Source: an uncultured Candidatus Saccharibacteria bacterium (GTDB taxonomy: Bacteria > Patescibacteriota > Minisyncoccia > Phycocordibacterales > UBA6899). Taken from it: 64,000 nucleotides of DNA. The stretch lies in NCBI GenBank assembly GCA_964386905.1, contig CAYLUP010000002.1:128522-192521 (forward strand), given 5' to 3'. Below are positions 55,808-56,234 of the stretch, in pieces. Under the pieces are notes generated by a model. It worked only from the letters and a program-made list of their open reading frames with translations, ran no database searches and was not told the DNA's origin. A program made the position numbers and the translations under genes. Positions within the stretch are counted from its first letter, which is position 1; each line of letters begins with the position of its first letter.

Positions 55808-56234
55808 TTCAAACAACCGCACCCTCCCGAGCCCCCTGTAGACAAACAGTCTGCTTAGGGCTCCTTTTTTTAAAATTTTCTCCATCGAGTGTACGTTGTG
55901 TATTCTTTTTACGAACTTTTAGGTATACTTGCTTGTAAAGAAAAGAGTGAAATTGTGATTCGCGTTTCTGTACAGCCACCATATATTCTGGGAGGGTGTT
56001 TTTGTTTACTGAAGGCAGGTTGGTTTCAAGAAATTTAGGGCATCCTATACAAATAAAACAGGCGTATGCCTGTTTTAAAGTCCAAGAAATGGAGCAATGT
56101 ACACGAGCACCATTGAGAGAACGACAAGTATCCCAAGAGTTGCTCCTACGCGCTTACCCCATTTTCCTCGTGCTGATCGAAAAAGTGTAGATGACATACT
56201 GTAATAATTAGTGTATTTATAGTATACTATAGGC

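What the first reader, a model, noticed from the sequence alone, without database searches (positions are those of the whole stretch)
56013..56080. Degenerate relic of the tRNA-Arg 3' end plus terminator, 1.1 kb downstream of tRNA-Arg
'GGTTTCAAGAAATTTAGGGCATCCTATACAAATAAAACAGGCGTATGCCTGTTTTAAAG' resembles the tRNA-Arg 3' end plus its terminator 'GAGGGCACAAATAAAACAGGCATACGCCTGTTTTATTTT', with the hairpin loop inverted. Together with tRNA-Arg, it brackets A1, A2 and a small GC-richer membrane-protein gene that has its own consensus promoter and terminator (55422-55870). This is the expected footprint of an older, larger integrated element whose attR has decayed, with the small gene as cargo.
Basis: inference. 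Interest (0 to 1): 0.55.

Follow-up and report, generated by a model that had tools for sequence, protein, structure and literature searches.

The report
tRNA-Arg repeat end doubling as terminator
The flagged hairpin is a real second copy of the tRNA-Arg terminator, but it is a working terminator for a conserved 40-codon gene on the other strand. It also marks the far edge of a ~970-bp gene-carrying stretch that close relatives lack. This is an ordinary kind of tRNA-linked insertion, set among unusual conserved repeats that follow tRNA genes in this bacterial group.

Summary
56049-56077 matches the tRNA-Arg terminator at 27/29 bases in direct orientation. It matches 27/27 as an inverted repeat, with the 4-nt loop exactly flipped; none is expected by chance.

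The "tRNA 3' end" half shrinks to AGGGCA (56037-56042) and fails every alignment test (p 0.04-0.7). Synteny partly rescues the idea. Three relatives (L052, L154, L003) carry a clear tRNA-Arg 3'-end copy directly left of the equivalent hairpin. All three lack the ~970 bp at 55077-56049, which holds A2 and the 91-aa membrane-protein gene. That gene has atypical codon usage and belongs to a real but sparse protein family.

The interpretation needs three corrections:
- The hairpin is not decaying. It is the intrinsic terminator of a conserved minus-strand 40-aa gene (56197->56075) whose stop codon lies in the stem.
- A1 is not part of the insertion. It is conserved in the relatives.
- No integrase, terminal inverted repeats or target duplication were found, so a "larger integrated element" is not shown.

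The context is more interesting than the relic. Conserved structured elements, whose arms copy the 3' end of the adjacent tRNA, follow many tRNA genes in this Patescibacteria (CPR) clade and match nothing in Rfam.

The parts
54845..54916 (+). tRNA-Arg(CCT); its 3' part (from the T-loop, 54896) is the sequence copied downstream
   Evidence: ARAGORN and Rfam tRNA at 65 bits
54916..54949 (+). T0: intrinsic terminator of tRNA-Arg (stem-loop 54922-54943, loop ATAC, then a T-run); reference copy of the repeated hairpin
   Evidence: RNA fold -16.0 kcal/mol
54950..55076 (+). A1, a type-A tRNA-flanking element: arm complementary to the tRNA 3' end (54950-54968), conserved three-hairpin core, and a direct copy of the tRNA 3' end (55053-55076). 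Present in relatives, so not part of the insertion
55077..55345 (+). A2, a long type-A element without its own left arm. It ends in a second tRNA 3'-end copy (55293-55316, 1 mismatch) and a degenerate terminator copy (to ~55345). Absent from L052, L154 and L003
   Evidence: family D3, 87% identity; weak covariance-model hit at 55114-55193
55422..55871 (+). Self-contained cargo gene: promoter TTGACT-17-TATAAT (55422-55450), Shine-Dalgarno AAGGAGG, 91-aa membrane protein (55532-55807), terminator hairpin plus T-run (55829-55871). Absent from relatives
55872..56036 (.). Spacer inside the insertion with no detectable similarity to the tRNA or to the element cores
56037..56048 (+). AGGGCA (56037-56042) plus 6 further bases (TCCTAT, 56043-48) before the shared block, which opens ACAAAT at 56049: the only possible remnant of the tRNA 3'-end copy that relatives carry at this position. 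Not significant on its own
56049..56077 (-). T3: second copy of the tRNA-Arg terminator hairpin (loop flipped to GTAT on the + strand). On the minus strand it reads TAAAACAGGCATACGCCTGTTTTA followed by TTTGTAT, an intrinsic terminator whose first three bases are the small gene's stop codon
   Evidence: listed as a minus-strand terminator, 10-bp stem; -13.3 kcal/mol
56075..56197 (-). Conserved 40-aa membrane peptide gene (MSSTLFRSARGKWGKRVGATLGILVVLSMVLVYIAPFLGL), divergent from ftsB and terminated by T3
   Evidence: (15 synonymous / 2 nonsynonymous vs L052); called as a gene on the Logan contig
56235..56633 (+). FtsB/DivIC-like gene; the conserved right-hand anchor used for synteny

Best explanation
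The feature is the terminal unit of a short array of [tRNA-Arg 3'-end copy + terminator hairpin] repeats downstream of tRNA-Arg, and it has two roles.

1. Terminator. The hairpin (56051-56077) is the Rho-independent terminator of a conserved 40-codon membrane-peptide gene on the minus strand. The stop codon TAA forms the base of the stem and a T-run follows. This role explains why the hairpin is intact while everything to its left is not.

2. Repeat copy. The hairpin is a paralogue of the tRNA-Arg terminator. The two copies still exchange sequence: both carry the same lineage-specific extra A and loop base relative to L052. One copy has had its loop flipped, as expected from recombination within or between palindromic stems.

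In the ancestor, as in L052 and L154 today, the order was tRNA-Arg, T0, A1, tRNA 3'-end copy, hairpin, small gene. In the window's lineage about 970 bp (55077-56049: A2 plus an autonomous 91-aa membrane-protein gene) came to lie between A1's 3'-end copy and the hairpin. Most likely this happened by recombination at one of these repeat units, acting as a secondary att-like site. The copy on the right-hand junction then eroded to AGGGCA.

Shown: the repeat, the gene it terminates, the presence/absence pattern, and the atypical codon usage.
Inferred: the direction (gain rather than loss), the recombination mechanism, and that AGGGCA is a remnant.
For: - Repeat: 27/27 inverted and 27/29 direct identity, none expected by chance.
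- Terminator: listed as a minus-strand terminator. The ORF on the minus strand ends inside the stem.
- The small gene is real: 38/40 aa identical to L052, with 15 synonymous and 2 nonsynonymous codon differences. It is also present in L154, L003 and L017, each followed by a hairpin.
- Relatives L052 (FtsB 83% identical), L154 (77%) and L003 (44%) have a tRNA-Arg 3'-end copy directly left of that hairpin, and none has A2 or the cargo gene.
- L052 and L154 are sisters (FtsB 89%). One gain therefore explains the pattern, against two losses.
- Cargo gene: GC3 57.6% vs 39.5 +/- 7.2%, codon choice at the 0.4th percentile. It belongs to a real family of 29 distant homologues of ~85-95 aa.
- Decay gradient of the 3'-end copies with distance from the tRNA: exact, then 1 mismatch, then only AGGGCA.
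- Within-genome identity of the two hairpins versus between-genome differences: ACAAAT and loop ATAC/GTAT in the window, against ACAAT and ATTC in L052.
Against: - The tRNA-derived part of the relic is not statistically detectable. The right junction could simply be an illegitimate insertion point.
- No integrase or other recombinase domain was found in the segment or in the ORFs scanned. Nothing similar was found in viral, phage or plasmid collections.
- The polarity rests on three relatives, and L003 is distant, with a differently built array.
- Homologues of the cargo gene are also GC-richer than their host loci, so the GC shift is partly a family trait.
- Termination at the hairpin has not been measured.
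Confidence: 0.6

Rival explanations
1. Junction of an illegitimate insertion, with no decayed attR. The ~970 bp was inserted between A1's 3'-end copy and the pre-existing hairpin by a non-site-specific event. A1's copy at 55053-55076 is the one that relatives have next to the hairpin. AGGGCA at 56037 is chance or a small junction duplication.
For: - The left part of the relic is not significantly similar to the tRNA end or to the A1 end.
- In L052 and L154, A1's 3'-end copy abuts the hairpin directly. A single cut there, followed by insertion, reproduces the window.
- No recombinase was found.
Against: - AGGGCA lies 7 nt from the shared block, roughly a 0.2-1% chance by my estimate.
- The insertion contains a further 3'-end copy plus a degenerate terminator (55293-55345). 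That is what unit-by-unit recombination would leave behind.
- No terminal inverted repeats or target duplication, as a transposon would leave.
Confidence: 0.25
2. Loss in the relatives rather than gain here. The array with A2 and the cargo gene is ancestral. The L052/L154 lineage deleted it by homologous recombination between the direct 3'-end copies.
For: - Deletion between unit 1 and an intact terminal unit would give exactly the L052 structure.
- Arrays of these units clearly change copy number, e.g. the 100% identical 208-nt tandem after tRNA-Gly.
- If new units enter at the tRNA, units further right are older than A1.
Against: - The segment is absent from L003 as well.
- The cargo gene has atypical codon usage.
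- It has no close homologue among 5.8 billion proteins.
Confidence: 0.15
3. Invertible cassette. The two hairpins act as 27-bp inverted repeats that let the 1.1-kb segment between them (promoter plus cargo gene) flip.
For: Perfect 27-bp inverted repeat with 1103 bp between the arms (I1). The loop of one copy is flipped, so recombination in the inverted register has happened at least within a hairpin.
Against: - All three independent assemblies of this strain group (window, L050, L051) have the same orientation.
- No invertase is nearby.
- The inverted identity is confined to the palindrome itself, which any direct copy of a palindrome would show.
Confidence: 0.05
4. Independent, convergent terminators with no common origin.
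For: Both are AT-flanked GC hairpins of the usual terminator type.
Against: 27 consecutive identical bases, including loop and flanks, with none expected by chance. Other terminators in the region share no sequence.
Confidence: 0.01

Closest known systems
tRNA-gene-linked genomic islets with tandem accretion and degenerate att repeats (integrase-less 'cis-mobilizable' remnants, as described for streptococcal ICE/CIME arrays; from my own knowledge)
   Same: Direct copies of the tRNA's 3' part, starting in the T-loop, delimit successive segments downstream of an intact tRNA. The segments vary between relatives. One carries a self-contained accessory gene of atypical composition. The copies decay with distance from the tRNA.
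   Different: No integrase anywhere nearby. The segments are tiny (130-700 bp). The repeated unit includes the terminator hairpin. The segments next to the tRNA are conserved structured elements rather than decaying remnants.
Intrinsic (Rho-independent) terminator shared by convergent transcription units
   Same: GC-rich stem, 4-nt loop and a T-run on the minus strand, directly after a stop codon. A-run and T-run flanks make the hairpin nearly symmetrical.
   Different: Its sequence, not only its structure, is conserved, and it is kept identical to a second copy 1.1 kb away. Ordinary terminators nearby (e.g. after the glutaredoxin gene) keep only the structure.
Hairpin-loop micro-inversions (loop flipped by recombination between the stem arms; well known in chloroplast non-coding DNA, from my own knowledge)
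   Same: The two copies differ only by exact reverse-complementation of the 4-nt loop.
   Different: Here the flip distinguishes two paralogous copies in one bacterial genome. It may instead result from gene conversion between the copies in the inverted register.
Small structured intergenic repeats of bacteria (BOX, RUP, Correia, REP/BIME)
   Same: Elements of 100-250 nt that fold stably, are modular, vary in copy number and are found next to terminators.
   Different: The A and G elements occur only directly after tRNA genes. Their outer arms are copies of the adjacent tRNA's own 3' end, in both sense and antisense. None matches an Rfam family.

Membership tests
Integrated element at a tRNA gene (attL/attR model) | Direct repeat of the tRNA 3' part at the distal boundary (attR) | tested here: inconclusive
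   In the window only AGGGCA remains, and the alignment tests are not significant. At the homologous site, L052, L154 and L003 have a clear copy.
Integrated element at a tRNA gene (attL/attR model) | Integrase or other recombinase gene in or next to the element | tested here: not met
   No ORF of that kind lies in 54917-56080. No recombinase Pfam domain was found in the window ORFs scanned. A few ORFs were not scanned (34347-41233 and 48161-52357).
Integrated element at a tRNA gene (attL/attR model) | Presence/absence polymorphism with conserved flanks | tested here: met
   55077-56049 is absent from L052, L154 and L003, while Grx, tRNA-Arg, the small ORF and ftsB are conserved.
Integrated element at a tRNA gene (attL/attR model) | Atypical composition of the cargo | tested here: met
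   GC3 57.6% vs 39.5 +/- 7.2%; synonymous codon choice at the 0.4th percentile. Caveat: homologues elsewhere are also GC-richer than their hosts.
Intrinsic terminator | Stable GC-rich stem-loop followed by a U-run, directly downstream of a co-oriented gene | tested here: met
   Minus strand: 10-bp stem, 4-nt loop, then TTTGTATAGG; -13.3 kcal/mol. The stop codon at 56075-56077 forms the stem base. L052, L154, L003 and L017 have the same arrangement.
Intrinsic terminator | Transcripts end there | not testable with these tools
   No expression data available.
Invertible segment (site-specific inversion) | Inverted repeats, an adjacent invertase, and both orientations present in the population | tested here: not met
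   The inverted repeat is present. There is no invertase, and there is one orientation in three assemblies.
Transposon or MITE insertion | Terminal inverted repeats and a target-site duplication at the insertion boundaries | tested here: not met
   The best inverted match at the ends is 8 bp (p = 0.08). There is no direct repeat beyond AGGGCA.
Known RNA families (Rfam 15), for the A1/A2 elements and the relic | Match to a covariance model | tested here: not met
   Only the tRNAs reach threshold. The remaining hits are sub-threshold microRNA-like hairpin matches.

The most novel reading that the evidence does not exclude
The relic is the last unit of an undescribed class of elements appended to tRNA genes in this Patescibacteria clade. 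Each element is a conserved structured core of one of two types. Type A has three hairpins. Type G has two long hairpins. The core is closed by a long helix made from a copy of the adjacent tRNA's 3' end and its reverse complement, and the element is followed by a terminator.

The elements are selectively constrained: 82-89% identity where 4-fold degenerate sites are 53% identical. They occur at different tRNAs in different genomes (Arg, Ser, Gly, Phe, Ile), and they vary in copy number and core content even between 99.7%-identical strains. If they are functional RNAs, or recombination modules that create secondary att sites and capture genes such as the 91-aa cargo, this would be a new tRNA-linked system for genome plasticity.
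Probability: 0.3. Interest if true: 0.7.

Novelty: new member of a known kind. Interest (0 to 1): 0.4.

Why it matters
- For annotation: a hairpin that looks like debris is a working terminator for an unannotated, conserved 40-aa gene next to ftsB. The neighbouring 91-aa gene is a recently acquired accessory gene.
- For genome biology of the candidate phyla radiation: tRNA 3' flanks here are hot spots where small units are duplicated, swapped and occasionally trap a gene, with no integrase in sight.
- The conserved tRNA-flanking elements may merit a study of their own. They appear to be under selection and have no counterpart in Rfam.

Tried and rejected
1. Treating GGTTTCAAG... as a decayed GGTTCGATTCC. 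The local alignment is not better than shuffles or genomic background.
2. Re-reading the same stretch as the eroded third hairpin plus 3' copy of an A1-type element. It is visually appealing against L052/L154, but p = 0.04-0.7.
3. Looking for a degenerate type-A or type-G core in the spacer 55871-56050. Nothing was significant; the best was p = 0.014 before correcting for 12 tests.
4. Transposon signature at the insertion ends: an 8-bp inverted match (p = 0.08) and no target duplication.
5. A phage or plasmid origin of the elements or of the cargo segment. Three IMG/VR pattern scans gave only chance 15-16-mer hits with no extended similarity. BLAST of 54918-56080 against 50,697 phage and 72,556 plasmid records found nothing.
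6. Integrase hunt by Pfam in the window ORFs: only housekeeping genes.
7. Rfam at permissive thresholds: nothing but tRNAs.
8. Strain variants lacking the segment, by exact protein look-ups. Only two near-identical contigs were found, and both carry it.
9. Context of cargo homologues (L149, L151): ordinary loci with no tRNA 3'-end repeats.
10. Four literature searches found no description of such tRNA-flanking elements in these bacteria. That is not proof of absence.

Full report
**What is in the sequence.** tRNA-Arg(CCT) lies at 54845-54916. It is followed by a terminator hairpin, T0 (AAAACAGGC-ATAC-GCCTGTTTT plus a T-run). The flagged region contains a second copy of this hairpin.

- As a direct repeat, 54916-54944 and 56049-56077 agree at 27 of 29 positions. 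The two mismatches turn the loop ATAC into its exact reverse complement, GTAT.
- As an inverted repeat, 54921-54947 and 56051-56077 agree at 27 of 27.
- The motif occurs nowhere else in the 64 kb, even with three mismatches allowed, and in none of 100 shuffles.

**The 'tRNA 3' end' half.** The 40-57 nt left of the shared block were aligned to the tRNA-Arg 3' part. The best local score (13) is reached by 23% of shuffles and 15% of all windows of the sequence.

I then noticed that the stretch could be read as the eroded last hairpin plus 3' copy of an A1-type element, as seen in L052 and L154. That reading also fails (p = 0.04-0.7 over three scoring schemes and four references). What remains is AGGGCA at 56037-56042, seven bases left of the shared block. 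It is suggestive by position only.

**What the hairpin does.** On the minus strand an ORF runs from 56197 to 56075 and encodes MSSTLFRSARGKWGKRVGATLGILVVLSMVLVYIAPFLGL. Its stop codon TAA forms the first three bases of the hairpin. On that strand the hairpin is followed by TTTGTAT, and the terminator scan lists it as a minus-strand terminator (-13.3 kcal/mol).

The ORF is a real gene:
- The L052 orthologue is 38/40 identical, with 15 synonymous and 2 nonsynonymous codon differences.
- Homologues sit divergently next to ftsB in L154, L003 and L017, each followed by a hairpin.
- It has no Pfam or NCBIfam family.

The hairpin is therefore a functional, selected terminator. That explains why it is intact while the sequence to its left is not.

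**Relatives.** ValS places the window in Patescibacteria, among Paceibacteria-like genomes.

- L003 (ValS 80% identical) has the same block: tRNA-Phe, a 95-aa gene, glutaredoxin, tRNA-Arg, the small ORF, ftsB, tRNA-Gly.
- L052 (FtsB 83%) and L154 (77%) are closer. They are sisters of each other (FtsB 89%).
- In L052 the order is tRNA-Arg, T0, A1, a copy of the tRNA 3' end (CCTGCTGAGGGCA), an identical hairpin in the same loop orientation, then the small ORF.
- L154 is the same, with the 3' copy slightly eroded (CCTGCTTGTGGCA).
- L003 also has an intact 3' copy abutting the small ORF's terminator.
- None of the three has A2 or the 91-aa gene.

Relative to them, the window carries about 970 extra bases (55077-56049). 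Two near-identical strain contigs (L050, L051; 99.7-99.8%) carry the segment and the identical relic.

**The cargo gene.** The 91-aa gene has an 11/12 consensus promoter with an extended -10, a Shine-Dalgarno sequence, and its own terminator (-20 kcal/mol).

- It has no close homologue among 5.8 billion proteins. An exhaustive HMMER search found 29 distant homologues of similar length with a conserved motif, so it is a genuine small membrane-protein family.
- Its GC3 (57.6% vs 39.5 +/- 7.2%) and synonymous codon choice (0.4th percentile) are atypical for this genome.
- Two homologues in other genomes sit in ordinary contexts without tRNA repeats. They too are GC-richer than their hosts, which weakens the GC argument but not the codon-choice one.

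**History.** The simplest account is as follows. The ancestor had tRNA-Arg, T0, A1, a 3' copy, the hairpin, then the small ORF. The window's lineage acquired A2 plus the cargo gene at or next to a repeat unit.

- One gain explains the distribution, against two losses.
- The 3'-end copies decay with distance from the tRNA: exact at 55053-55076, one mismatch at 55293-55316, then only AGGGCA.
- The two hairpins evolve in concert. Both window copies have ACAAAT and the loop base A, where both L052 copies have ACAAT and T. This implies gene conversion or re-duplication after the lineages split, and the flipped loop fits recombination in a palindrome.

What is missing is any recombinase, any transposon signature, and any similar sequence in viral, phage or plasmid collections. 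A 'larger integrated element' is therefore conjecture. An illegitimate insertion with a chance AGGGCA remains a serious rival (about 0.25).

**The context is the more unusual part.** A1 is not debris. Between the window and L052, 4-fold degenerate sites are only 53% identical (77 sites). By contrast:

| Segment | Identity, window vs L052 |
|---|---|
| A1 core | 82% |
| Element after tRNA-Gly | 89% |
| T0 | 91% |

Such elements follow tRNA-Ser, tRNA-Arg and tRNA-Gly in the window, and tRNA-Arg, Phe, Gly and Ile in L003, L044, L052 and L154. In total, 11 of 68 tRNAs in the loci examined have extra copies of their own 3' 17-mer nearby.

Each element has the same layout:
- a terminator;
- an arm complementary to the adjacent tRNA's 3' end;
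- a conserved core, either type A (three hairpins, with invariant GGGGTCGGG..CCCGTGRAGGARGGCAG) or type G (two long hairpins);
- a direct copy of the tRNA 3' end starting in the T-loop.

The predicted folds are far more stable than shuffles (z = -4.2 to -9.8). A covariance model of type A finds 7 strong and 3 weak hits in 431 kb, and all lie directly downstream of tRNA genes. Of the aligned pair positions, 89.6% form standard pairs, and 5 pairs show compensatory changes (only seven sequences, so this is modest support). Nothing in Rfam matches.

The arrays are dynamic. There is a 100%-identical 208-nt tandem after tRNA-Gly. In strain contig L051, A1's core is replaced by an unrelated ~107-nt sequence. 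I could not establish whether these are RNAs, DNA recombination modules or selfish elements.

**Verdict.** As a finding it is a new member of a known kind, of moderate interest. The surrounding element family deserves separate follow-up.

Noticed in passing
window 15950-16395; 54950-55345; 56713-57160; also L003 13990-14347(-), 15733-15919 and 16890-17088; L044 15573-15715(-) and 16432-16733(-); L052 443-579; L154 1-167 and 850-1026: Two families of conserved structured elements sit directly after tRNA genes (Ser, Arg, Gly, Phe, Ile). Each is closed by a helix made from a copy of the adjacent tRNA's 3' end and its reverse complement, and each is followed by a terminator. They are much more conserved than 4-fold degenerate sites (82-89% vs 53%) and have no Rfam match. 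Their function and the way they spread are unknown.
   Followed up: partly
window 56694-57160: The 208-nt unit after tRNA-Gly (tRNA 3' copy + terminator + type-G element) is tandemly repeated about 2.2 times at 100% identity. Relatives L154 and L003 have one unit, which indicates recent amplification.
   Followed up: partly
L051 798-904 vs window 54977-55092: In a contig 99.7% identical to the window, the core of A1, including its tRNA 3' copy, is replaced by an unrelated ~107-nt structured sequence. This is cassette-like replacement at the population level.
   Followed up: partly
window 54141-56712 vs L003 14348-16855: The whole block from tRNA-Phe to tRNA-Gly is inverted relative to ValS-PrsW-Hsp20 and the flanking genes between the window and L003. 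Both breakpoints lie at tRNA genes that carry these repeat arrays.
   Followed up: no
window 56217-56230: A perfect palindrome, TATAGTATACTATA, lies between the divergent small ORF and ftsB. It supplies a TATACT -10 box on each strand. It is conserved in L052 and L154, and ftsB may be leaderless.
   Followed up: no
L003 6262-6345; L017 4840-4925(-): tRNA-Pro (L003) and tRNA-Phe (L017) are followed only by a long palindrome (tRNA 3' end, terminator, then the reverse complement of the tRNA 3' end; arms of ~23-25 nt), without any core or second copy. This may be a minimal or precursor form of the arrays.
   Followed up: no
L003 15172-15640; L017 6145-6260: L003 has 117-nt tandem repeats plus a 50-nt partial tRNA-Arg copy downstream of tRNA-Arg. 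L017 has a copy of the 5' ~33 nt of tRNA-Arg upstream of the intact gene. Both are further tRNA-fragment duplications in this clade.
   Followed up: no
window 14323-15555: A 1.2-kb stretch just upstream of tRNA-Ser is strikingly GC-rich (60%, GC3 77%, against 45% for the window). It has long ORFs on both strands and no Pfam hit, so it may be foreign DNA or a mis-called gene.
   Followed up: no
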